Both the position numbers and the translations under genes were made by a program. This document shows positions 16,651 through 30,398 of a DNA stretch of 64,000 bases, one piece after another. The notes below the pieces were generated by a model. That model saw only the letters and a program-made list of their open reading frames with translations. It was not told the DNA's origin and made no database searches. The DNA is from a virus (Duplodnaviria > Caudoviricetes): IMG/VR virus record IMGVR_UViG_3300049174_000047, positions 7,731 through 71,730 of that record, one strand, 5' to 3'. The stretch's first letter is position 1, and every line of letters starts with the position of its first letter.

Positions 16651-17015
16651 TGACCGACACCCTCGGCGTCTGTGAGTCCTGCAAGGAACTCAAGGAGATC
16701 GTCTACGCCGACTCGGTGGGCCGGGAGTACTGCGACAGCTGCTTCTCCACCATGCCGGTGCCCACCCCCACCCGGATCATGGACTACCTGCTGCGCACTA
16801 TCCCGTTCCGGGTGGGCGACCGGGTGGAGGCTCGTACCGCCGCGGTGATCTTCGACGGTATCGGGACCATTGCGGAGATCTCCATCGAGCCCGAGAAGTT
16901 CGGCACCCCGGTCTACCCCAGCTTCCGGGTGGTCATCGAGGAGAAGGCGTACCCCGAGGCCCCAGACGAGCGCTGGTATATGGAGGCGCAGCTCAAGAAG
17001 GTGAAGGGTGACTAA
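16647..17015 (+). CDS. Hypothetical protein (two CxxC plus SH3-like FRVGDRV motif)
   Basis: CESC, CDSC and FRVGDRVEA. Confidence 0.7.
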   Translation: MMTDTLGVCESCKELKEIVYADSVGREYCDSCFSTMPVPTPTRIMDYLLRTIPFRVGDRVEARTAAVIFDGIGTIAEISIEPEKFGTPVYPSFRVVIEEKAYPEAPDERWYMEAQLKKVKGD

Positions 17016-19503
17016 CCCGATCATCCCGGCAGGAGGCAACTGGTCGGCCGAGGCGGCCCGGCTCAAGCAGGCGGGCTTCCCCGGCCTGCCGCGTAACCCC
17101 GCCATGGCCCGTATCGAGGCCCGCCAGATCGCCGAGACCGTACAGACCCGCGGCTCGCTGACCGACCTGACCAATCGCAAGCTGGCCGCCGACATGAATC
17201 GCCGTCGGGCTTCCACCCGCGGCTCGGTGGGCGGGGGCACCATCCGGGTGGCCAGCGACCTGCAGATGGCGCTGCCGAAGATCCGGCAGCCGCTGTCGAG
17301 CCTGATGGACAAGGGCATTCCCTTCGACATCACCGACCCGAAACAGCTCATTGAATTGCGCAGATGGTGCCGTCTGTTTTATGCCACGCATGATTTGGTG
17401 CCGCTATTGGTTGATATTTACAGCAAATTCCCAGTGACCGGGATCGAGTTTTCTTCAAAAGACCCGTTGATCGAGAAATTCTATACCGAGATGTTTCTCG
17501 ACAAGCTCAATTATGAAGAGTTCCTCCCCGATGCCATCGGCCGTGAGTATTTCGTTGCCGGGGAGGTTACCACGCTGGCCCACTTCAGCGAGGAGCTGGG
17601 GGTATGGAGCAGCGAAGAGGTCCTCAATCCCGACATGGTGGCCATTTCCAAGAGCCTCTTTGTCGAGGAGGAGCGGGTGCAGCTGCTCGTCAAGGAGTTG
17701 GTGGACGCGCTGCGCTCAGGCCCCTCCGGGCACCCCGACTCCCAGGAGCGGCCCAGCGAGCGCCTGGAACGCACCTTCGAGTATCAGCAACTGCAGAAGT
17801 ACTACCCCGAGATCATCCAGGCGGCCTCCCGCGATGACGGCCTGGACATCGCCGACGCTCTGGTATCCCGTCTGGTCAACAAGGCCAGTCCGTGGGACCT
17901 GCGCGGCACCCCGCCTTTGCTGAGATCCTTCCGCACCCTGCTGATGGAGGAGTCGCTGAACTGCGCCCAGGACGCCGTCTGCGACCGGCTCTACGCCCCG
18001 ATGATCCTGGCCACCATGGGCATCGAGAACATGGGCGACGGCGAGCCCTGGATACCCAGCGCCTCCGAGCTGGACGACCTGCGCGATGATCTGCAAAGCG
18101 CCCTGGCTGCCGACTTCAAGATCCTCGTCCACAACTTCGGTGTTCAGGTCACCCCTGTTTTCGGCCGGGAAAGTGTCCCCCGTTTCGATCAGGATTACGA
18201 CCGGGTGGACGCAAAACTTATGCAGGCGTGGGGGATTGGTCAGGCTTTGATTATGGGTGGCACCGGGGCGTCGGGCACCTACGCTTCATCTGCCATTAAC
18301 CGTGAGGTCTGCGAACAGCTGATGATGGGCTTCCAAAAGAAGGTCATCAGGCACATGCGCAAACGGATGGCCGTAATTGCCGAGGCCCAGGAACACTACG
18401 ACTACGAATTGAAGGGCGGGCAACGGATTCCGCTCTACCGAGAGATTGTGGTGGAGGACCCCGAGACCGGCGAGAAGCGCATCGAGCGCGTCCCTAAGCT
18501 GCTGGTGCCTGAGGTGCACTTCGCGACCCTGAATTTGCGCGACGAGGCCACCGAGCGCAACTTCGTGATGACGCTCAAGCAGGCCGGTGTGCCGGTCTCC
18601 GACAAGACGCTGGCGATCAACATCCAGCTCGACGCCGAGCAGGAGCTGGAACGCGAGGCGCAGGAGACCGTGGACAAGGCGCTAGCCAAGGCCCAGGCGT
18701 GGAAGAAGGTTCAGGACCTCTGCGACCTGGAAGGCCTGCCGTACCCACCGGAGCTGGCGGCGCACCTGGAATCCACCCTGCAGCTGCGCCAGATGCTGCA
18801 GCAGACCAACCAGCTCGATCTGCAGACCAAGATGCTGCAGATGCAGAAGGACCAGATGACCCCGGCCGGTCAGGTGGGGGCCATCCAGCCCGGCCAGCAG
18901 CCGATGCAGGGGGTGCCTCCCGAGCAGGCACAGCAGGAGGAGCCCGACGAGCAGCAGCTCATCCAGCAGGCCCTGCAGCTGGTTCAATCGACAGAGGCCC
19001 AGTCGGTGAGCGCCAACGCCCAGGCCGAGCCACCGATGGCCTCGGGCCCCTCGTCCTCCCCGCTCACCGAGTCCAGTCAGGTCGGCACCGGGGGAGCCAC
19101 CGAGCCCTCGCGCAACCGCAGCCGTCCGGTGGAGTCCGACGAGCAGCGAGCCGGTGCCCCCAAGGCCGCCTCCCAGCGCTGGGCTGAGCGGGTGCACGGC
19201 AATCACCGCTTCGCCCGCGGCCCGTCCAGTCTGGGGCACTCCCTACACGCCAGCGAGGAGGACGTGCAGGCCGCCATCCAGCGCCGGGAGATGTACGCCC
19301 GCCATCCGGGCACCCCCTTCGTCAGTCAGCTGATCGAGGACCCCGGCTTCTGGCGCATGCTCAACGCCACCGGGGACGAGGACGCCATCCGTGCCGACTG
19401 GCCCGAGATCCGGGCCGGGAAGGCCAGCGAGTCGGGGCGGCTGTTGCAGGACTTGGTCAGCCAGTACGAGGAGGTTACGGGGGTTCAGCCGATATGGGAC
19501 TGA
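17008..19503 (+). CDS. Portal protein
   Basis: 831 aa in the head module; WCRLFY..H.LVP.L.DIYS.FP, REYF..GE and ....PLL.S.....E..L..AQ..V..R patterns; N-terminal basic leader ending RVAS. Confidence 0.75.
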   Translation: MTNPIIPAGGNWSAEAARLKQAGFPGLPRNPAMARIEARQIAETVQTRGSLTDLTNRKLAADMNRRRASTRGSVGGGTIRVASDLQMALPKIRQPLSSLMDKGIPFDITDPKQLIELRRWCRLFYATHDLVPLLVDIYSKFPVTGIEFSSKDPLIEKFYTEMFLDKLNYEEFLPDAIGREYFVAGEVTTLAHFSEELGVWSSEEVLNPDMVAISKSLFVEEERVQLLVKELVDALRSGPSGHPDSQERPSERLERTFEYQQLQKYYPEIIQAASRDDGLDIADALVSRLVNKASPWDLRGTPPLLRSFRTLLMEESLNCAQDAVCDRLYAPMILATMGIENMGDGEPWIPSASELDDLRDDLQSALAADFKILVHNFGVQVTPVFGRESVPRFDQDYDRVDAKLMQAWGIGQALIMGGTGASGTYASSAINREVCEQLMMGFQKKVIRHMRKRMAVIAEAQEHYDYELKGGQRIPLYREIVVEDPETGEKRIERVPKLLVPEVHFATLNLRDEATERNFVMTLKQAGVPVSDKTLAINIQLDAEQELEREAQETVDKALAKAQAWKKVQDLCDLEGLPYPPELAAHLESTLQLRQMLQQTNQLDLQTKMLQMQKDQMTPAGQVGAIQPGQQPMQGVPPEQAQQEEPDEQQLIQQALQLVQSTEAQSVSANAQAEPPMASGPSSSPLTESSQVGTGGATEPSRNRSRPVESDEQRAGAPKAASQRWAERVHGNHRFARGPSSLGHSLHASEEDVQAAIQRREMYARHPGTPFVSQLIEDPGFWRMLNATGDEDAIRADWPEIRAGKASESGRLLQDLVSQYEEVTGVQPIWD

Positions 19504-23700: not shown

Positions 23701-25959
23701 CAGCAGGGCCAGCATGTCACGCGGGTCAATGCGCAGGGCCAGTCCGAGCTGCGGCCTGGTGAGACTCCCGCCGGTTTGTCGAATCAGCCGAAGCAGGGGG
23801 AAACGGTGCCAGCGGGTCAGCCCCCCGCCGCTGCGGTGGCTCCGGATGTCACCAAGCCAGCCCCGGCGGCTCAGACCAACGTGCCCCCGCCCGTCGGGGC
23901 GAGGCCGCCGAACACTCCCCAACTGCCACCGGCACCTCCTCCTCCCGCACCCACTACTCCGGGTGCACACGCCCGGTTCCAGATCACTCCGGGGCACAGC
24001 CTGCGCAGTCTGCACTACGCGGCCGACGAGCCCGACGACGACGACGAGGACGACAAGGACAAGGACAAGAGCAAGGCCCCGGCCGGATCGCCGGGCGGCG
24101 ATCCCAACAAGGCCACCCCGACCCCACCGGCCGCCAACCCCACCGGCACCCCGCAGACGGGAATGCCTCCGGGCATGGTCCCGCAGGGCCAGGTGCCAGG
24201 CAATCCGGCCGACGTGGCCGGGGCCATCGGGCCCGCGGCCAACGCCGGTCTGGACATCGCCCAGCAGGTGGCTCCCGCGGTCAGCAACTTCGCCCCGTGG
24301 AACGCCATCCTCCAAGGCGGCGGGGGCGACCTGGCCGGTATCGGCAGCAACATCGGCAATGCCATCGGTAGCGGCCTGGGCGGCCTGTTGCATCTGTTCG
24401 GGTCAACCGACCAGGACCCCGACACCCGGCCCGACACCGGAGAGGCTGCGGCCGACCTGGACCGGATGCGCGATCTCTCGGCCGAGACCCCCGACGAGCA
24501 CTACCAGCACATGGACTCATGGAACCAGGAGTTCCGTGACCTAGAGGACGACCTGCACGACGCCGGGGTGATGGCCAGCCCGTTCGTGGCCAGCCTGCAC
24601 TACGCGGCCGACGACGACGACTACTCGTCCGACGCCATGGGCAACTACAAGGGCAAGTCCACTCCCAACTGGGCCGACATGGCCGCCGCGGGCTCGGGCC
24701 CCTCGCCCAAGGGCTACATCACCGATTCGATCTCTTACGTCGATGCCCATGAGGCCAAGGACATGCGCAACCTGCTGGCCGAGCCGCCCGACGACGACGG
24801 GATCATCAAGTTCAACGACGGCCGGTCCAAGCCCCCACAGGGACCACGACAGGGCAATGTCATGGGGCCGGGGTTAGAGGAGCAACTCACTGGCAAGCGA
24901 CCCGTTTATCGCCAGCTCAGTGACAATCCCGAGCCCGGTGGTCGCTATGAGATCACCTACGAGAACACGCGGAAGAAGAACACGCGCAGCAAGCCCCCGC
25001 GTTCGGCCGCAGCGCCTCCCAAGGGCCAGCCGCTGCGCGAGCGCTCCCGGATGCTCAACCCCCATGAGCCGGGCAGCCCGGACTGGCATGAGCGGATGAA
25101 CGAGCTGTACGTCCCCGACTACCAGAAGGGGAGCGACCCCAACATCCACCAGGGCTACTACCGCTACGCGGTGGACGCCGACGAGCAGAGTGGCTACTTC
25201 AACCCCGATCAGCCCTCCGAGGAGGACTGGAACTCCCCGCAGGAGTTCGGCGACGAGATGAGCAATGCCGCCGATCAGGTCATGCCCAGCGGCGGCACAC
25301 CGGGCAAGACACCCGGCGGCTCGGAGGACGCTGCCGAGGGTGGCGAAGCGGCAGCCGGGGGCGAGGCTGCTGCTGGTAGCGAGGCCGCTGAGTTGGCTCC
25401 GCTGTTGCTGGCAGCTGGCCGTGGCCAGGGCGGCGGCGGTGGCGGTTTCTCCTTGGAGGCCTTCGACCGCGGTGAGTTCGCCCCGGTGGGCTGGGACCAG
25501 GGGGCCGGTGGGCATGCCGTCGGCTCCGGGGAGCTACGGCGGGCCGCCCGCATCGGCGGCGGCCCCCGCCAGCAGGTGCGGATAGACCCCGGCATGCGCC
25601 AGGGCAACCGGCCACCCAGCCAACAGACCTACGCCAGCGTCATGAACGACACCTTCGGCAACGACGGCGAGCCCGAGCTGGCCAACTACGGCGAGCCAGC
25701 TGCCTCTCCGATGGGCTCCGACATCGTGGCCAACTTCCACCGGATGGGCGGGGCGCAGGCCATCTACCAGCAGGCCCCCGCCGGGGGCCGGGACGATTTC
25801 GCGTCCAGCCCCTTCGTACAGGCCATGATTCGCACCGCCGGGCGCAAGTTCAGCCCGGCCGAGCAGCGCGAGTTGGAACAGGAGGAGCACCACCTCGGGG
25901 CCCGCAACCTGCCCACCGACGAGGACCTCGAAGGCACCCACTACCTGCTGGGACTGTGA
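20755..25959 (+). CDS. Giant (1734 aa) modular head-region protein B with SWIM zinc finger and LysM
   Basis: SWIM-like WYCGC...LCSH (about 21930-22110); LysM-like YQINQGETLTDLS...ITDPNNIQQGQ (about 23569-23720); LHYAAD twice, plus RVA, RYA and RTA motifs. Confidence 0.85.
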   Translation: MANVGDSAHTDHGLGVITEIDTVRGRSSFRVAGRGFNVWVDETKLRVAKDGNPWGAPYDLQTTVDSGVHEVNKDNSTVLPYDYTPQFSVDQFRADQNIQPGEQEINADDRLRSSDSLSGNSASPNRPYPGPNPDLFAKSAGAFDRSHGPWSGRPQPDRSAIKAMGTQELIDLHDQGIQAPNHTNELVLRSNTGDHLATGWRKRRESARYAEFEDEPSYPDWGSDEWHTDLPDGPERTMQQTASAPVQERHYRPSKWDEPVDPLTSELRRHFERNPHHQLEEDDPARYSARQDWFERPAGLSDRYAYLEPEVDQDSPAASFKRDPVAFIEAAAYFGSSRYSDDALEAHFGSYSDLLGADKLMKVGKWSDVREKAMRLRRDGAVHIHDIDHDRIYATVQGDHGTYDCMIKKGGSMGGWGGGQSITNWYCGCDWGNWAFKRRYSYVGRLCSHAYAAYLDMQSKHMKANPSHFKPKKYLPGAAWGKTGSFDRLAGVVEDYKKFCEDNDKGPEPSSVADFVSISNEDLSDEDVEKLYDYIHENPAMVPEREFDVPYTFDEDKVYKQSDLLRTQPRGLVPNLRQVPPPEDSEFVDVTKDERKTTGPDQIVHFSNLQRQIVAALHRTAAGGEPAVQAPSPPTYSTYQDRGRTVYRQNGTNKGYVLENDPNSPNRGQIREVDFTTQAPAGTELQGNTPGYQGGQYVFRPGGATWTRPDAGKDPNLWRSTDPNNTRGYQVNSQNPADVRGVNFQETAPWAPNTIQGPEGNKYIFHTGVGTVGGDEFGQFLQSRPDVSGNFGQQGPAPGPNGPQVPPGVPPIGGGPNDKGPGAPYSAAGLPRMLTQPGQGVPAGGNVDWAVNPILNPEAGATPFNRDPKAYGGGEENYNRMMGITNRPGATGTGAGEKGSVGTGQGFGGAGFQQGGEWLRSRESTPIDVAHGYSNQGGYQINQGETLTDLSHRMGESGNLNNLRYIDPTTGKLSDITDPNNIQQGQHVTRVNAQGQSELRPGETPAGLSNQPKQGETVPAGQPPAAAVAPDVTKPAPAAQTNVPPPVGARPPNTPQLPPAPPPPAPTTPGAHARFQITPGHSLRSLHYAADEPDDDDEDDKDKDKSKAPAGSPGGDPNKATPTPPAANPTGTPQTGMPPGMVPQGQVPGNPADVAGAIGPAANAGLDIAQQVAPAVSNFAPWNAILQGGGGDLAGIGSNIGNAIGSGLGGLLHLFGSTDQDPDTRPDTGEAAADLDRMRDLSAETPDEHYQHMDSWNQEFRDLEDDLHDAGVMASPFVASLHYAADDDDYSSDAMGNYKGKSTPNWADMAAAGSGPSPKGYITDSISYVDAHEAKDMRNLLAEPPDDDGIIKFNDGRSKPPQGPRQGNVMGPGLEEQLTGKRPVYRQLSDNPEPGGRYEITYENTRKKNTRSKPPRSAAAPPKGQPLRERSRMLNPHEPGSPDWHERMNELYVPDYQKGSDPNIHQGYYRYAVDADEQSGYFNPDQPSEEDWNSPQEFGDEMSNAADQVMPSGGTPGKTPGGSEDAAEGGEAAAGGEAAAGSEAAELAPLLLAAGRGQGGGGGGFSLEAFDRGEFAPVGWDQGAGGHAVGSGELRRAARIGGGPRQQVRIDPGMRQGNRPPSQQTYASVMNDTFGNDGEPELANYGEPAASPMGSDIVANFHRMGGAQAIYQQAPAGGRDDFASSPFVQAMIRTAGRKFSPAEQRELEQEEHHLGARNLPTDEDLEGTHYLLGL

Positions 25960-25960
25960 T

Positions 25961-28810
25961 GTGAGAGGCGATGACTGGGGCGACCCCCACTTCCGTTCCT
26001 GCGACGAGCTGCCGGGAGACCGTCGCGAGCTGACGGCCGCGCATATCAAGTGGGCCGAATCCGACGCGGCCGAGGAGCAGCTGATCCGGCCCTATCGCGG
26101 GCGCTACGGGGCAATCCAGCGGGGCTTCCAGTTCAAGCCGGGCTTTCTCTACACCCAGGTGCGGGCCATCGCCGCTCGGATCAACCAGAACTTCGACGGG
26201 TGGCCGTCGGGTGAACTAAAGAAAAGCTATAGAACTTTTCTAGGTAAACCGTGCTTCGTCAATCATCAAAATTTTGACCCCGCCAAGGCCCGCGGCAAGG
26301 TCATCGCGGCCCGCTACATCGAGAACGGCCGGGACAAGTACGTGGACGTGATTCAGGAGATCGACGCCCAGCGCTTCCCCAAGCTGGCCCATGAGATCAA
26401 GACCGGCGGGATGGACTCGGTCTCGATGGGTGTCGAGGCGGGCTTCACGATCTGCAGTTATTGCGGAAACAAAGCGGTGGACGAGGACGACTTCTGCTCC
26501 CACGTCAAGTACCACAAGGGCCGTATCCTGCCGCGCATCAACGCCAAGACCGGGGCCCATGAGGACGTGCTGGTCTACGAGAAGTGCCACAAATTGGGGT
26601 TCTTCGAGTTGAGCTTCGTGTTCGACCCCGCCGACGAGACTGCCGTGGTCAGCCGGGTGCTCTCGGCCAGCCGCACCGCCCAGGCCCCGGCCGAGCAGAT
26701 CCCCGGTGAGATGCAGACCTACTCCGACTTCCCCTACGTCGATATGCCGAGCCCGATGATGCCTCAAGCCAGCCGACGCCGCGCTTACGGCGAGGCCGAG
26801 CAGCCCGACGATGACTGTTTCTGCACCTGTGAGGACCACCATCACGACGATCCCGAGTGGGAAGAGCAGTGGCGCGACACCGGGGAAGAGGCTCCCGAGG
26901 ACATCGACACTCTGCGCGACGACGACGAGTCCGAGGGCGAGGACTCATTTAAACACTACGTCGAGAGCCCTAAAGAGTTGAGAGGTCCTGATCTCGATCA
27001 GACCAAGCGCCTCGACCGAGCACAAGAGCAGGAAGGACTCGACGCGGATCGTCGCGTGGAGGACGTGGAAAACGTAGAAGGAGTTCCCATGCCCCGCACC
27101 GGACGCCGCACTCGAAGGAGCACCCGTATGAGCACGCTGGTCGATCCCCGCACCGGGCGGCGCTTCGTCGCCGCCGACGAGCTGCCTCCCGAGGTGCTGC
27201 AGGCCTTGATGGCTGGCGGCGGGGGTGGTGGTGCCCCCATGCCGATGGACGACGGCGGGGGCGGCTTCCCGCCTCCCGATGACGGTGGTTTCCCGCCCGA
27301 GGACGAGGGTGACTTCCCGCCGTCCGACGAGGGTGACGAGTTCCCCGAGGACGAGTTCGGCGGGGAGGACGAGGACGACTACGGCGACGAGGGCGACGAG
27401 GGCGACGAGGGTGAAGAGTCCGACGAGGACCTCATCGAGGAGGCCGAGGAGGACCTAGAGCAGGCCGAAGGCGAGGAGGGCTACGGCGAGGAAGAGGAAT
27501 ACCCCGAAGAGGGTGAGGACGAGTTCGGCGGCGAGGAGTACCCCGAGGACGAGGAAGAGGAAGGCCCGCCGCCAGAGTTTTTGGCCCGCCGTCATGGAAA
27601 TCGCCGCACTTCCTACCAGAAGAAGAGAAGGGCTCGGAAAGGAACGCCGATGAGTCTCGCAGCTCGCAACCGTGTGGCCAGCGTTGGCCGTCGCCGCCAC
27701 TACGCCGACGACTCGGGCCACTTCGACAGTGGGCCCTATGGCGAAGATAACCAGGGCCAGCAGGAGGACGTGTTCATCAGCCAGACGCCGGGCACCGAGC
27801 CGGTGGCAGACCCGACGCCGGGCGACGGCACGATCTCCAACACCGAGAAGAACCTGGTGGCCCGCATCCAGGCCCGCAACAACGAGCAGCGCCGCGACCT
27901 GATCGCCTACGAGCAGATCACCGGGCGGCGCATCCGCGCCGACGGGCACGCCACCGAGAACCCCGACGAGGTCAACCCGACCGTCAACACCGGGCCGGGC
28001 GGCGAGGAGCAGACCGGCGACGACTTCGAGTCGCTGGCCCTGGACAACGAGGAGACCCAGCCCAAGAACGCCTCGCTGGCTCCCTTCAAGGCCTTCAACA
28101 CCTGGCTGTACCAGACCACCGGCCGCCAGGCCCGCCAGCACGGCAACGCCACGTTCCTGCGCCGCCAGGCGGCCCGGTTCTGCCAGGCCTCCGGTTATTC
28201 AGTCGAGTCGCTGTTCCCGGCCATGGGGATGGTGTTGCGCGAGATCCGCGCCAATCAAGGGAGGACCGCCATGCGCCGGTACGCCGACGACAAGCTGGAT
28301 GTTGCGGCCCCGCAGGACCGCATCGACGTAGAGCAGCCGGTATCGGACACCACCGACGCCGACGCGCAGGCGAGTCAGTTCGGCCTGAGTGACTTCGGCG
28401 GCAACGCCGGGGACAACCTGGCCGATCCCAATCTCGACACCGACTCCCAGATCTGGGCTCCCGGAGAGAAGCCAGCTGGGTTCAAGAGTTCCAACCGCAA
28501 GGCTGACGGCATCACCGCGGTGCGTTACGCGGAGGCCTTCATCGAGGCGGGGCTGGCCCCCAACACTCCCGAGGAGAAATGGAAGCTCGCGGGGCTGGCA
28601 CAGACGATGCGCCACGGCACCATCGTGGATCGCATCCGATTGCTGGACGCCGTGAACACCGTTCACCAAGCCAGCAGACGCCGCACCGCAGGAGTCAGCG
28701 GTGCCGGTCGTGGTATTCCACAGGGCTTCGGTGGCCGTCAGTTGACCGCGGGAGTCGTGCGGGAGGCCGCAAACGACATCGCAACAGACAGCGCCATCTT
28801 CCTCAAGTAG
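25961..28810 (+). CDS. Prohead (capsid maturation) protease fused to scaffold
   Basis: F.GKP.FVNH (His), DSVSMG (Ser), C..C...C.H zinc insert, FFELSFV.DPAD.TA; long acidic/basic scaffold-like C-terminus; lies upstream of decoration and capsid genes. Confidence 0.85.
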   Translation: MRGDDWGDPHFRSCDELPGDRRELTAAHIKWAESDAAEEQLIRPYRGRYGAIQRGFQFKPGFLYTQVRAIAARINQNFDGWPSGELKKSYRTFLGKPCFVNHQNFDPAKARGKVIAARYIENGRDKYVDVIQEIDAQRFPKLAHEIKTGGMDSVSMGVEAGFTICSYCGNKAVDEDDFCSHVKYHKGRILPRINAKTGAHEDVLVYEKCHKLGFFELSFVFDPADETAVVSRVLSASRTAQAPAEQIPGEMQTYSDFPYVDMPSPMMPQASRRRAYGEAEQPDDDCFCTCEDHHHDDPEWEEQWRDTGEEAPEDIDTLRDDDESEGEDSFKHYVESPKELRGPDLDQTKRLDRAQEQEGLDADRRVEDVENVEGVPMPRTGRRTRRSTRMSTLVDPRTGRRFVAADELPPEVLQALMAGGGGGGAPMPMDDGGGGFPPPDDGGFPPEDEGDFPPSDEGDEFPEDEFGGEDEDDYGDEGDEGDEGEESDEDLIEEAEEDLEQAEGEEGYGEEEEYPEEGEDEFGGEEYPEDEEEEGPPPEFLARRHGNRRTSYQKKRRARKGTPMSLAARNRVASVGRRRHYADDSGHFDSGPYGEDNQGQQEDVFISQTPGTEPVADPTPGDGTISNTEKNLVARIQARNNEQRRDLIAYEQITGRRIRADGHATENPDEVNPTVNTGPGGEEQTGDDFESLALDNEETQPKNASLAPFKAFNTWLYQTTGRQARQHGNATFLRRQAARFCQASGYSVESLFPAMGMVLREIRANQGRTAMRRYADDKLDVAAPQDRIDVEQPVSDTTDADAQASQFGLSDFGGNAGDNLADPNLDTDSQIWAPGEKPAGFKSSNRKADGITAVRYAEAFIEAGLAPNTPEEKWKLAGLAQTMRHGTIVDRIRLLDAVNTVHQASRRRTAGVSGAGRGIPQGFGGRQLTAGVVREAANDIATDSAIFLK

Positions 28811-28840: not shown

Positions 28841-29374
28841 ATGTTTAGGCCACCCATCTCCAACCCGGCGCTCAAGCGTTCGATCCGACCGATCTACGCG
28901 CAGCACCAGGCGACGACATACGGGGGTTTCTTGGACCCTGCATGGGCCCGTTCGTTCGACATCTACCCCGGCACTGTGATGTGCCGACTCAACAAGGAGA
29001 TCTTCACCCCCTTCACCGGGGCCGGGAACCAGAAGCCTTTCGGGCTCTCTGCGCTCTTCCTGGCACCCCAGCTCGGGGTGGATGAATCCACGGCCACCGG
29101 CACCAACCTCTTCACGGTCTGGGTCGGCGGCGAGCAGGCGGTATTCGAGATCCTGGCCCCCGGCTTCGACTCGACGGCCAACTGGTCCTCGGCCAACGTC
29201 ACCGACGGCGGTTTCCAGCTGTTGACGGCGACCAACCAGGGCCTGCTCACCCCAACCGGCGCGAACAACAACAACGCCATCGCCGAGCTGATCGACGTGC
29301 CGACCACCGACAAGATCCTCATTCGACTGAATCGCTACAACTTCGCGACCTCAGTCGCCGTGGGACCGCTGTAA
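28841..29374 (+). CDS. Capsid decoration/stabilising protein
   Basis: Between protease and major capsid; RBS AAAGGAGG; beta-rich 177 aa. Confidence 0.65.
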   Translation: MFRPPISNPALKRSIRPIYAQHQATTYGGFLDPAWARSFDIYPGTVMCRLNKEIFTPFTGAGNQKPFGLSALFLAPQLGVDESTATGTNLFTVWVGGEQAVFEILAPGFDSTANWSSANVTDGGFQLLTATNQGLLTPTGANNNNAIAELIDVPTTDKILIRLNRYNFATSVAVGPL

Positions 29375-29390
29375 GGAGGCATTGAACATC

Positions 29391-30398
29391 ATGACTACGG
29401 CAATCCCGCAGGCCATCGGTTCCGGCCTGCAGCGCATCGCCCGCAACTCGGAGGACTACGTCGCCGACATCCAGCGGGTCATGGACCGGATGGGAGGCCA
29501 GAAGCTCAGCCATCGGCAGAAGCAAGCCAAATTGGCGCACATTCTGGGCGACCGTCAGAACGGAATGATGCGGCTCGGACAAAGCATGATCGGGCCAATT
29601 CAGCTCCAATTGCGTTACCAAGGTATTTTGAGAAACGTATTGCTGGAAGATACCCTCACTCCCGGCGTACCCATTCAGTACGATGTGCTGGATGACCTTG
29701 GTCAGGCCTACATGCTCCACGGCGACGAGGGTGAAATCAAAATCACGCCGTTTGAAGGCAAGCGCGTGGAGGTGCAATTGTTCCGAATTGCATCATTCCC
29801 GAAAATTAAAAAGGAGGATTTGTACTACCTCCGCAGTAATATCGTGGAATACACACAAGACATGACGAAGCAGGCCATTATGCGGCAGGAAGATAGCCGC
29901 CTGGTGACCTTGCTCGAAGTGTCGGCGGCTAATTACCGCCTGGTGGATACGACCGCCGTTCCTGGCACCGGCTCACTTCCCAACGAAATCACAATCGGTG
30001 GGTCCACGCTGATGCCGAGCGACCTCTACACCGCCGTGACCTTCACGGATCAGCGGATGTTGGACTCCTCGCGGTTGCTCTGCAATCCGCAAGAATACCG
30101 CGACTTTTACCGCTGGGAAATTGCGACCACGGGCTGGGCATTTAAAGACAGCGTGGTGGCCGGTGAAAAGATCGTGCAATTCGGCGAGTTCCAAATCGGC
30201 AAGAGCATCATCATCCCCCGCGGGACGGTGTACCTGACCCCCGAGCCGACCTTCCTCGGCGTATTCCCGGTCATGTATTCCTTGGATGTCGAGGAAAACA
30301 ACCAGGTGGAGCAATTCCACAAAGGCTGGGTTATGGACGAATTGGTTGGAATGGTGGTCCTAAACCCCCGCGGCATAATTATCCTGCGGAAGGCGTAA
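29391..30398 (+). CDS. Major capsid protein (HK97 fold)
   Basis: 335 aa after the decoration gene; RBS AAGGAGG; terminal GW...E.VG.VVLNPRGI motif. Confidence 0.85.
   Translation: MTTAIPQAIGSGLQRIARNSEDYVADIQRVMDRMGGQKLSHRQKQAKLAHILGDRQNGMMRLGQSMIGPIQLQLRYQGILRNVLLEDTLTPGVPIQYDVLDDLGQAYMLHGDEGEIKITPFEGKRVEVQLFRIASFPKIKKEDLYYLRSNIVEYTQDMTKQAIMRQEDSRLVTLLEVSAANYRLVDTTAVPGTGSLPNEITIGGSTLMPSDLYTAVTFTDQRMLDSSRLLCNPQEYRDFYRWEIATTGWAFKDSVVAGEKIVQFGEFQIGKSIIIPRGTVYLTPEPTFLGVFPVMYSLDVEENNQVEQFHKGWVMDELVGMVVLNPRGIIILRKA

What the first reader, a model, noticed from the sequence alone, without database searches (positions are those of the whole stretch)
27076..28810. Four in-frame internal RBS+ATG starts nested in the protease gene, each opening with a basic leader
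AGAAGGAG-5nt-ATG 27089 (MPRTGRR), GAAGGAG-7nt-ATG 27128 (MSTLVDPRTGRRFVA|A), GAAAGGA-6nt-ATG 27650 (MSLAARNRVA|S...RHYA|D) and AAGGGAGGA-5nt-ATG 28271 (MRRYA|D) are all in the protease frame. They predict C-coterminal products of 573, 560, 386 and 179 aa. One nested scaffold start is known (lambda C/Nu3, herpes UL26/26.5); four, each followed by the putative cleavage motif, would be unusual.
Basis: partly seen in the sequence, partly recalled or inferred. Interest (0 to 1): 0.7.

Follow-up and report, generated by a model that had tools for sequence, protein, structure and literature searches.

The report
Nested start sites in phage protease-scaffold gene
One 949-codon phage head gene (capsid protease at the front, scaffold-like tail) carries internal ribosome-binding sites with start codons that selection has kept across dozens of distant relatives, so it very probably makes a ladder of three to five proteins sharing one C-terminus instead of the usual two.

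Summary
The ORF has a T4 gp21/herpes-assemblin-fold protease at its N-terminus. The rest is acidic, disordered and helical, like a scaffold. It belongs to an uncultured relative of the Bxz1 (Cluster C) and Phrappuccino mycobacteriophages.

- **27650 and 28271:** both are kept family-wide. A start codon with a strong SD is present in 12 of 12 and 14 of 17 lineages. Replaced Met codons seen at the DNA level are GTG in five lineages; two distant relatives have no start codon at 28271.
- **27089 and 27128:** these belong to a third module found in about half of the full-length relatives. It is doubled only in the window's clade.
- **Synonymous sites:** just upstream of the starts, Arg is AGG/AGA in 71% of cases against 10% elsewhere. 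In the Arg-rich leaders just downstream it is 5%.
- **Controls:** two similar basic R-x-A motifs without a start codon have no SD.
- **Full-length start:** it is GTG with a weak SD.

No experiment exists, and no paper or GenBank record describes this. Verdict: a new multi-start variant of the lambda C/Nu3 principle, testable in cultured mycobacteriophages. Another first-stage note of this scan flagged three such starts in a related 952-aa ORF from another genome.

The parts
25961..28810 (+). Full-length ORF, 949 aa: protease, linker, acidic region and scaffold-like C-terminal part. It is one continuous frame in every full-length relative.
25961..25963 (+). GTG start of the full-length product, 1 nt after the upstream gene's TGA (25957-25959). 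The SD is weak (-3.9 kcal/mol). There is no other ATG/GTG/TTG before the conserved domain.
26084..26698 (+). Prohead protease domain with the assemblin / T4 gp21 fold. His102, Ser155 and His181 are invariant in the protease-domain alignment A2, and a Cys-x2-Cys...Cys-x-His insert is present.
26771..26794 (+). SRRRAYGE motif at the end of the protease part (Gly277 and Glu278 invariant). It is a basic R-x-A motif without an SD, so it serves as an internal control and is a likely self-release site.
27076..27091 (+). Internal start 1: AGAAGGAG, 5 nt, ATG (M377), giving a 573-aa product. Start codon and SD are kept in the window's clade (L005, L006, L009, L012). It probably corresponds to the family-wide 'site C'.
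27114..27130 (+). Internal start 2: GAAGGAG, 7 nt, ATG (M390), giving a 560-aa product. It is a second start inside the leader of start 1 and is kept in the same clade.
27158..27178 (+). RRFVAAD, the motif that ends the basic leader of starts 1 and 2 (family consensus M-A-R-T-R-x-R-Y-A-A-E-E-D).
27173..27595 (+). Extremely acidic Asp/Glu/Gly/Pro-rich region (residues 405-545; 61 D+E against 2 K+R). It is present only in the full-length, 573-aa and 560-aa products.
27637..27652 (+). Internal start 3: GAAAGGA, 6 nt, ATG (M564), giving a 386-aa product. It is 'site A', kept in 12 of 12 lineages. In two lineages the start codon is GTG.
27668..27712 (+). NRVAS and RRRHYADD motifs that follow start 3. 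Ala582 is nearly invariant.
27923..27943 (+). GRRIRAD, a conserved RRxxA[DE] motif in the middle of the 386-aa part. It has no start codon and no SD and serves as a second internal control.
28257..28273 (+). Internal start 4: AAGGGAGGA, 5 nt, ATG (M771), giving a 179-aa product. It is 'site B', kept with a strong SD in 14 of 17 lineages. In three lineages the start codon is GTG.
28271..28291 (+). MRRYADD, a five-residue leader plus motif. Ala775 is nearly invariant.
28673..28693 (+). SRRRTAG motif about 40 residues before the C-terminus. It may be a release site for a capsid-binding tail, by analogy only.

Best explanation
The gene encodes a head-assembly polyprotein. It has an assemblin/T4-gp21-fold protease at the N-terminus, followed by a linker, a very acidic segment and a helical, largely disordered scaffold-like C-terminal part.

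Besides the full-length product, ribosomes most likely start at three conserved internal modules in the same frame. The full-length product starts from a weak GTG directly after the upstream gene's stop. The internal modules are site C (doubled in this window, ATG 27089 and 27128), site A (ATG 27650) and site B (ATG 28271).

The result would be a nested set of C-coterminal proteins of 949, 573/560, 386 and 179 aa. The C-terminal module would then be made in the largest amount and the protease in the smallest. This is a translational dosage staircase, an extension of the lambda C/Nu3 principle.

Each internal product opens with a short basic leader that ends in an R-(hydrophobic)-A motif. The same motif lies at two boundaries that have no start signal, and near the N-termini of the capsid and cement proteins. 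I infer that it is the protease's cleavage or targeting signal, so the leaders would be removed in the prohead.

Shown here: the signals exist and are under selection at the nucleotide level. Inferred: initiation in vivo, the relative amounts, cleavage at the motif, and scaffold function.
For: 1. **Family and fold.** PHROG 18299 'head maturation protease' matches with E 1.6e-18 and PHROG 2774 with E 9e-234. The model of residues 42-246 has pLDDT 86.7. Its best structural matches are T4 gp21 (Z 10.1, rmsd 2.7, 126 aligned) and herpesvirus proteases (Z 7-9.9). The gene lies between the portal gene and the cement and capsid genes.

2. **One frame everywhere.** All 36 unique full-length relatives keep one continuous ORF.

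3. **Conserved start codons.** In 120 homologues, Met is conserved at M564 (101/120) and M771 (113/120).

4. **SD at the DNA level.** In 74 related loci, a duplex of -8 kcal/mol or better occurs at site A in 25 of 27 unique contexts. The other two were mis-picked by the script and are -8.3 and -8.1 at the right codon. At site B it occurs in 39 of 50 contexts, or 39 of the 48 that carry a start codon. Two conserved control Met codons score 0 of 37, and about 5% of in-frame positions of the same ORFs reach that value.

5. **Lineage level.** Clustering at 65% identity gives 12 of 12 lineages for site A and 14 of 17 for site B, binomial P about 1e-12 each.

6. **Amino acids change, the SD stays.** The residues upstream vary (KG, RR, EGG, EKE, RS, TG), but the nucleotides keep GGAG, AGGA or GGGAG 3-9 nt before the start.

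7. **Synonymous sites.** At codons -6 to -2, Arg is AGG/AGA in 54 of 76 cases against 10% in the rest of the ORFs (P 1e-35). Gly is GGA/GGG in 84% against 27% (P 8e-23). In the Arg-rich leaders at +1 to +20, AGG/AGA falls to 16 of 343. At the two start-less RRxA motifs it is 6 of 74 and 2 of 74.

8. **GTG replacements.** Where Met is replaced, the codon is GTG with the SD kept, in five lineages.

9. **Open RNA.** 60-nt windows around the starts fold weakly, -12 to -13.5 against -17.8 kcal/mol for background.

10. **Site C.** It is present in 19 of 36 full-length ORFs, 16 of them with a strong SD, often as AGG-AGG coding for Arg-Arg. Both window ATGs are kept, with SD-like strings in most cases, in L005, L006, L009 and L012.

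11. **Strength of the starts.** The full-length start is GTG with -3.9. The internal starts have -8.4 to -11.8, in the range of the window's ordinary gene starts.

12. **Cultured phage.** In phage Cali gp93, the only three internal Met codons that reach -8 are a site before the AWGE motif, site A and site B.

13. **Gene callers.** On contigs cut at the 5' end, about 50 calls begin at site B (172-185 aa) or site A (383-477 aa).

14. **Scaffold-like shape.** The 386-aa part is predicted as helices within disorder.
Against: - There is no direct evidence of initiation: no ribosome profiling, N-terminal proteomics or Western data for any member of the family.
- Randomising only synonymous codons gives modest P values at single sites (median 0.07-0.18), because the amino acids themselves (K, G, E, R) already favour an SD.
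- A few lineages have weak or absent signals at site B (L026, L057, L015, L067, L073).
- The Bxz1-type clade lacks site C.
- 27089 and 27128 are conserved only within one clade of about five lineages, and one of them is weak in L009 (-6.3).
- Cleavage at R-x-A is inferred from recurrence alone. The capsid protein's N-terminal motif is not strictly conserved.
Confidence: 0.62

Rival explanations
1. Only the two family-wide sites (27650 and 28271) are real internal starts. The pair at 27089/27128 would be incidental purine-rich strings in a basic, Gly/Glu-rich linker, so the gene would make three proteins rather than five.
For: Sites A and B are kept in nearly all lineages. Site C is missing in 17 of 36 full-length ORFs, including the whole Bxz1-type clade. 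In L009 the second Met has only -6.3, and in L012 the first has a poor GGGTGG string. The window ORF also has three non-conserved Met codons with SD-like strings, so chance SD+ATG pairs do occur in this region.
Against: Site C carries AGG-AGG for Arg-Arg with energies of -11 to -12 in at least six divergent lineages (L021, L023, L024, L026, L032 clade, L050). Both window Mets, with SD-like strings in most cases, are kept in four further lineages at 56-80% identity. Gene callers also pick site C on truncated contigs (P0029, P0053, P0104).
Confidence: 0.2
2. None of the sites initiates translation. The conserved Met-basic-R-x-A strings would be protease recognition or cleavage signals only. The SD-like strings would be by-products of the Lys/Gly/Glu/Arg residues that precede them.
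For: The same kind of motif occurs at two boundaries without any start signal (26771, 27923) and near the N-termini of the capsid and cement proteins. Synonymous-only randomisation is not significant at many single sites.
Against: Arg and Gly codon choice switches to rare SD-forming codons only in the five codons before the start: 71% AGG/AGA there, 5% in the leaders and 3-8% at the start-less motifs. The upstream residues are not conserved, but the nucleotide motif and its spacing are. Replaced Met codons are GTG in five lineages. RNA structure is relaxed around the sites.
Confidence: 0.06
3. The SD-like strings act on elongating ribosomes, for example as pauses at domain borders that aid folding or cleavage. 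Alternatively, they are decaying relics of once-separate genes that fused, and are no longer used.
For: The sites lie at predicted domain borders. Relatives insert cargo domains and inteins at such borders, which shows a modular history.
Against: Pausing does not need an ATG or GTG at a fixed 3-9 nt distance, nor weak local RNA structure. Relics would not survive divergence down to 45-55% protein identity with turnover of the coding residues. No relative with split genes was found.
Confidence: 0.06

Closest known systems
Phage lambda genes C and Nu3, and phage Mu I and Z (established knowledge, not tested here)
   Same: A head protease gene whose C-terminal part is also translated on its own. 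Translation starts from an internal in-frame RBS and start codon and gives an abundant scaffold that shares the protease protein's C-terminus.
   Different: Those genes have one internal start. This one has two family-wide starts, a third module that is doubled in the window, and a weak GTG for the full-length form. The lambda protease is ClpP/SppA-like, whereas this one has the assemblin/gp21 fold. There is no sequence similarity.
Herpesvirus UL26 / UL26.5 (assemblin protease and scaffold; established knowledge)
   Same: The protease fold is the same (Z 7-9.9). The protease is fused in frame to the scaffold. A nested C-coterminal scaffold product exists. Herpes proteases cleave after Ala (Ala|Ser), including near the scaffold C-terminus. 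Here the putative motif also ends in Ala, and one copy lies about 40 residues from the C-terminus.
   Different: In herpesviruses the nested product comes from a separate internal transcript, not from an internal RBS, and there is only one. Cleavage is not demonstrated here.
Phage T4 gp21 protease with the core proteins gp22, IPI-III, gp67 and gp68
   Same: T4 gp21 is the closest solved fold (5jbl, Z 10.1). T4 core proteins carry short N-terminal targeting leaders that gp21 removes. This resembles the short basic leaders that end in a putative cleavage motif here.
   Different: T4 encodes these core components as separate genes and cleaves after Glu. Here the components are one frame with nested starts, and the motif ends in Ala.
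Cali gp93, Tonenili and Phrappuccino gp53 (cultured mycobacteriophages), each annotated as a single hypothetical protein, or as 'tape measure' in Cali
   Same: They are true homologues (tblastn E 1e-82 to 9e-97) with the same neighbouring genes. Sites A and B are present with an SD.
   Different: The Cluster C genes are longer (1236-1286 aa) and carry cargo domains. They lack site C, have another SD+ATG before the AWGE motif, and have a strong SD at their GTG start. No nested products are annotated in the records.

Membership tests
Assemblin / T4 gp21-fold prohead serine proteases | Characteristic beta-barrel protease fold | tested here: met
   The AlphaFold model has pLDDT 86.7. Foldseek's top hits are all T4 gp21 or herpes proteases (probability 0.97-1.0). 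VIA-align gives Z 10.1 for 5jbl and Z 7-9.9 for herpes proteases, above unrelated rows at about Z 6.
Assemblin / T4 gp21-fold prohead serine proteases | Conserved catalytic Ser and His residues | tested here: inconclusive
   His102, Ser155 and His181 are invariant in the 34-sequence alignment A2; Ser155 is only nearly invariant in A1. Their spacing is like that of the known triads. I did not obtain a residue-level superposition, and His181 could instead belong to the Cys/His insert.
Assemblin / T4 gp21-fold prohead serine proteases | Match to a curated sequence family | tested here: inconclusive
   There is no Pfam hit, no meaningful NCBIfam hit and no PDB sequence hit. PHROG 18299 'head maturation protease' matches with E 1.6e-18.
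Nested in-frame protease/scaffold genes (lambda C/Nu3 type; an organisation, not a homology family) | Protease and scaffold-like part in one frame, sharing the C-terminus | tested here: met
   The C-terminal 386 aa are predicted as helices within disorder.
Nested in-frame protease/scaffold genes (lambda C/Nu3 type; an organisation, not a homology family) | Internal RBS and start codon maintained by selection | tested here: met
Nested in-frame protease/scaffold genes (lambda C/Nu3 type; an organisation, not a homology family) | Shorter product detected, and shown to act as a scaffold that binds the capsid protein | not testable with these tools
   No proteomic or ribosome data were found.
Leader-directed head-core proteins (T4 capsid-targeting-sequence type) | Short N-terminal leader that ends at a protease site and is removed in the prohead | tested here: inconclusive
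   Leaders of 5 to about 29 residues end in R-x-A, and the Ala is nearly invariant at sites A and B. Similar strings occur near the capsid and cement N-termini. Cleavage itself is not shown.

The most novel reading that the evidence does not exclude
One reading frame would be translated from five start codons: a weak GTG plus four internal SD-ATG sites. This would produce a graded set of head-core proteins in which each successive module is more abundant than the one before. Every internally started product would carry a removable basic 'address and cut' leader. Together these features would let a single gene set the stoichiometry and layered make-up of the whole scaffold core of a large (T about 21) capsid. 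The same logic would be present, unannotated, in the hundreds of sequenced Bxz1-type mycobacteriophages.
Probability: 0.4. Interest if true: 0.7.

Novelty: new variant of a known kind. Interest (0 to 1): 0.62.

Why it matters
Nested protease/scaffold genes are a textbook way for a virus to set protein ratios, but the known cases have a single internal start. This family would use two to four. That would turn one gene into a stoichiometric ladder of head-core modules.

The members include more than 200 sequenced, easily grown mycobacteriophages, such as the Bxz1/Cali type and Phrappuccino. There the gene is annotated as one hypothetical protein, or wrongly as a tape measure. The prediction can therefore be tested directly in Mycobacterium smegmatis.

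It also bears on annotation. Internal genes of about 180 and 390 codons are missing from all these records. Finally, it gives a concrete candidate cleavage or targeting motif, R-(hydrophobic)-A, for an assemblin-fold phage protease.

Tried and rejected
- **Nucleotide search:** megablast against phage records found nothing.
- **Sequence families:** Pfam, NCBIfam and PDB sequence searches of the protease part gave no useful hit. The only hits were weak zinc-finger matches to the Cys/His insert.
- **Split forms:** I looked for relatives in which the parts are separate genes, which would prove the starts. None was found. All 36 full-length loci are one ORF. The 59 short database proteins that match residues 771-949 are gene calls on 5'-truncated contigs. 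P0164 lies 71 nt from a contig end. P0140 (246 aa, inside an 18.7-kb contig) starts within the middle domain and had no DNA available, so it was left unresolved.
- **Literature:** searches found no proteomic, ribosome-profiling or descriptive work on this gene family. The Myrna capsid paper (PMC7150772) covers only the capsid and cement proteins.
- **Mature capsid N-terminus:** I tried to read it from a solved homologue. Phage G gp27 (6wkk) aligns only from query residue 38, which is not informative.
- **Other SD-like strings:** Met417, Met427 and Met429 also have SD-like strings. I rejected them as starts because they lie in or beside a Gly-codon run and have no conserved counterpart.
Full report
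**What is there.** The window is part of a 71.7-kb IMG/VR viral contig, about half complete. ORF 25961-28810 on the + strand encodes 949 aa. It follows the portal gene (17008-19503) and a 1734-aa gene. It precedes a cement protein gene (PF23968) and the major capsid gene.

Residues 87-229 match PHROG 18299 'head maturation protease' (E 1.6e-18). Residues 310-947 match PHROG 2774 (E 9e-234). The nearest cultured relatives are mycobacteriophages Phrappuccino (gp53), Tonenili and the Bxz1-type Cluster C phages such as Cali (gp93). In those records the gene is one CDS, annotated as hypothetical or 'tape measure'.

A model of residues 42-246 (pLDDT 86.7) matches T4 gp21 best (Z 10.1, rmsd 2.7 over 126 residues), followed by herpesvirus proteases (Z 7-9.9). 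'Protease gene' is therefore correct.

**The observation.** All four strings and ATGs are at the stated coordinates and in frame. The product sizes of 573, 560, 386 and 179 aa are right. Energies against the anti-SD are -9.2, -8.8, -8.4 and -11.8 kcal/mol. These values are typical of the window's ordinary gene starts: the cement gene has -14.8, the capsid gene -11.1 and the 1734-aa gene -9.5.

The full-length start is different. It is a GTG one base after the upstream TGA and has only -3.9. In this ORF 9.3% of in-frame positions reach -8, and 7 of 16 internal Met codons do (P = 3e-4). Three of those seven lie in or beside a Gly-codon run and are not conserved.

**Comparative test.** A protein search gave more than 150 homologues. 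A scan of viral contigs gave 74 loci with DNA. Every one of the 36 unique full-length genes is one continuous frame of 730-1480 codons.

In the protein alignment, Met is conserved at M564 (101/120) and M771 (113/120). At the DNA level, I compared each site with all in-frame positions of the same ORFs and with two control Met codons:

| Site | Unique contexts reaching -8 kcal/mol | Source |
|---|---|---|
| Site A (window 27650) | 25 of 27; the other two were script mis-picks and are -8.3 and -8.1 at the correct codon | |
| Site B (window 28271) | 39 of 50, or 39 of the 48 that carry a start codon | |
| Two conserved control Met codons | 0 of 37 | |
| All in-frame positions of the same ORFs | about 5% | |

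After collapsing to lineages at 65% identity, the SD is strong in 12 of 12 lineages at site A and 14 of 17 at site B. Each has P of about 1e-12 against a 10% background.

The residues upstream differ between lineages (KG, RR, EGG, EKE, RS, TG). The nucleotides nevertheless always form GGAG, AGGA or GGGAG, 3-9 nt from the start codon.

| Position | Arg encoded by AGG/AGA |
|---|---|
| Codons -6 to -2 before the internal starts | 54 of 76 (71%) |
| Rest of the ORFs | 10% (P 1e-35) |
| Arg-rich leaders, codons +1 to +20 | 16 of 343 (5%) |
| Start-less motif ..RRRA[YW]GE | 6 of 74 |
| Start-less motif RRxxA[DE] in the middle domain | 2 of 74 |

Gly is GGA/GGG in 84% of cases before the starts, against 27% elsewhere (P 8e-23).

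In the five lineages where Met is replaced by Val at site A or B, the codon is GTG with the SD kept. RNA around the starts is predicted to be much less folded than elsewhere in the same genes: -12 to -13.5 against about -17.8 kcal/mol for 60-nt windows.

Gene callers working on contigs that lack the 5' part of the gene independently chose site B about 29 times (172-185 aa) and site A about 22 times (383-477 aa).

**The upstream pair.** A third module, site C, lies after the linker that ends in ..DRRVEDVE... It consists of an SD, an ATG and a leader of the form M-A-R-T-R-x-R-Y-A-A-E-E-D. It occurs in 19 of 36 full-length genes. Sixteen of these have a strong SD, often as AGG-AGG coding for Arg-Arg, with energies of -11 to -12.

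In the window's own clade (L005, L006, L009, L012/13; 56-80% identity) there are two Met codons, as in the window. Both mostly have an SD. The exceptions are -6.3 for the second one in L009 and a weak GGGTGG for the first one in L012.

The Bxz1-type clade lacks site C. It has a very strong SD+ATG (-14.8) before the AWGE motif instead. In Cali gp93 the only internal Met codons that reach -8 are that site, site A and site B.

**How it most likely works.** The full-length protease-containing protein starts from a poor site. In relatives the full-length start is often GTG or TTG, or has a weak SD, though not always. The internal sites have ordinary to strong signals.

The simplest reading is a nested, C-coterminal set of products. 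In that set the C-terminal module (179 aa) is present in every product. The middle module is present in all products but the shortest. The acidic segment (61 D+E against 2 K+R) is present only in the long forms. The protease is present only in the rarest form. This extends the lambda C/Nu3 and Mu I/Z logic (established knowledge) from one internal start to three or four.

The 386-aa part is predicted as long helices and small helical domains embedded in disorder, which is scaffold-like.

Each internal product begins with a basic leader that ends in R-(hydrophobic)-A. The Ala is nearly invariant at sites A and B. The motif recurs at 26771 (invariant Gly-Glu after it), at 27923 and at 28673. Similar strings lie near the N-termini of the capsid protein (..GLQRIA|R, conserved as GRFA in relatives) and the cement protein.

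I infer that the motif is the protease's recognition or cleavage signal. This fits the Ala-specific cleavage of herpes assemblins (my own knowledge), but it was not tested here. Another first-stage note on this window proposes the same motif for the two giant neighbouring ORFs. I did not test that claim.

**Rivals.**
- Only sites A and B are used (about 0.2).
- The strings are by-products of the protein motif (about 0.06). The sharp codon-choice switch, the GTG replacements and the fixed spacing argue against this.
- The strings are pause signals or decaying relics of a gene fusion (about 0.06). The fixed start codon, the open RNA structure and survival down to 45-55% identity argue against this.

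**Limits.** No literature on this gene family was found. No relatives with split genes exist in the data examined. Related sequences are not independent. The lineage-level test reduces that problem but does not remove it.

**Novelty.** The principle is known. The multiplicity is not described in any paper I could search, nor in the GenBank records of the cultured relatives. It comprises two family-wide starts, a third module that is doubled here, and a weak full-length start. Another first-stage note of this scan (e1-5812481) flagged three such starts in a related 952-aa ORF from another genome, so the scan has seen this family before. It was not followed up there.

Noticed in passing
window 26453-26506 (residues 165-182): The protease domain carries a Cys-x2-Cys ... 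Cys-x-His string (CSYCG ... FCSHV). These residues are invariant in 34 relatives. A profile of the domain gives only weak matches to C2H2 zinc fingers over these residues. This may be a zinc-binding insert in an assemblin-fold protease.
   Followed up: partly
relatives P0010, P0027, P0028, P0033, P0034, P0045, P0059, P0099 etc.; L026: Many homologues are 1100-1600 aa because extra domains sit between the protease and the scaffold-like part. These include PF26571 (ARB-07466-like / VldE), PF25735, lytic transglycosylase domains (PF01464, PF06737) and intein/Hint domains (PF14890, PF14528, PF05203). In L026 the protease domain itself appears to be interrupted by an intein-like insert. The gene seems to serve as a carrier for head-packaged cargo.
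   Followed up: no
window 28841-29374 and 29391-30398: The cement protein opens with ..KRSIRPIYA|QHQ and the capsid protein with ..GSGLQRIA|RNSEDYVAD. The latter is conserved as GSGLGRFA[KR] in about 40 relatives. Both resemble the R-x-A motif inside the protease gene, so both may lose a leader of about 17-20 residues.
   Followed up: partly
window 27209, 27239, 27245: Three further in-frame ATGs (Met417, 427, 429) have SD-like strings (-9.5, -13.1, -8.5). They sit in or beside a run of Gly codons (GGCGGCGGGGGTGGTGGTG) and have no conserved counterpart in relatives. They are probably compositional.
   Followed up: yes
window 29391-30398: The capsid protein is unusually conserved for this family: 72-99% identity across loci in which the protease-scaffold gene is only 45-80% identical. 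It is a sequence homologue of the giant phage G capsid protein gp27 (PDB 6wkk, E 1e-24).
   Followed up: no
L002 (Cali NC_011271.1) 46878; L003 (Tonenili) 50605; L036: Bxz1-type genes have a very strong SD (GAGAGGAGG, -14.8) with an ATG just before the conserved ..AWGETEAP motif that ends the cargo/protease part. In the window the equivalent place (Met266/267) has no SD. This looks like a lineage-specific extra nested start.
   Followed up: partly
window 25957-25963: The stop of the 1734-aa gene (TGA) and the GTG start of the protease gene are separated by one base (TGAtGTG). This suggests translational coupling as the way the rare full-length product is made.
   Followed up: no
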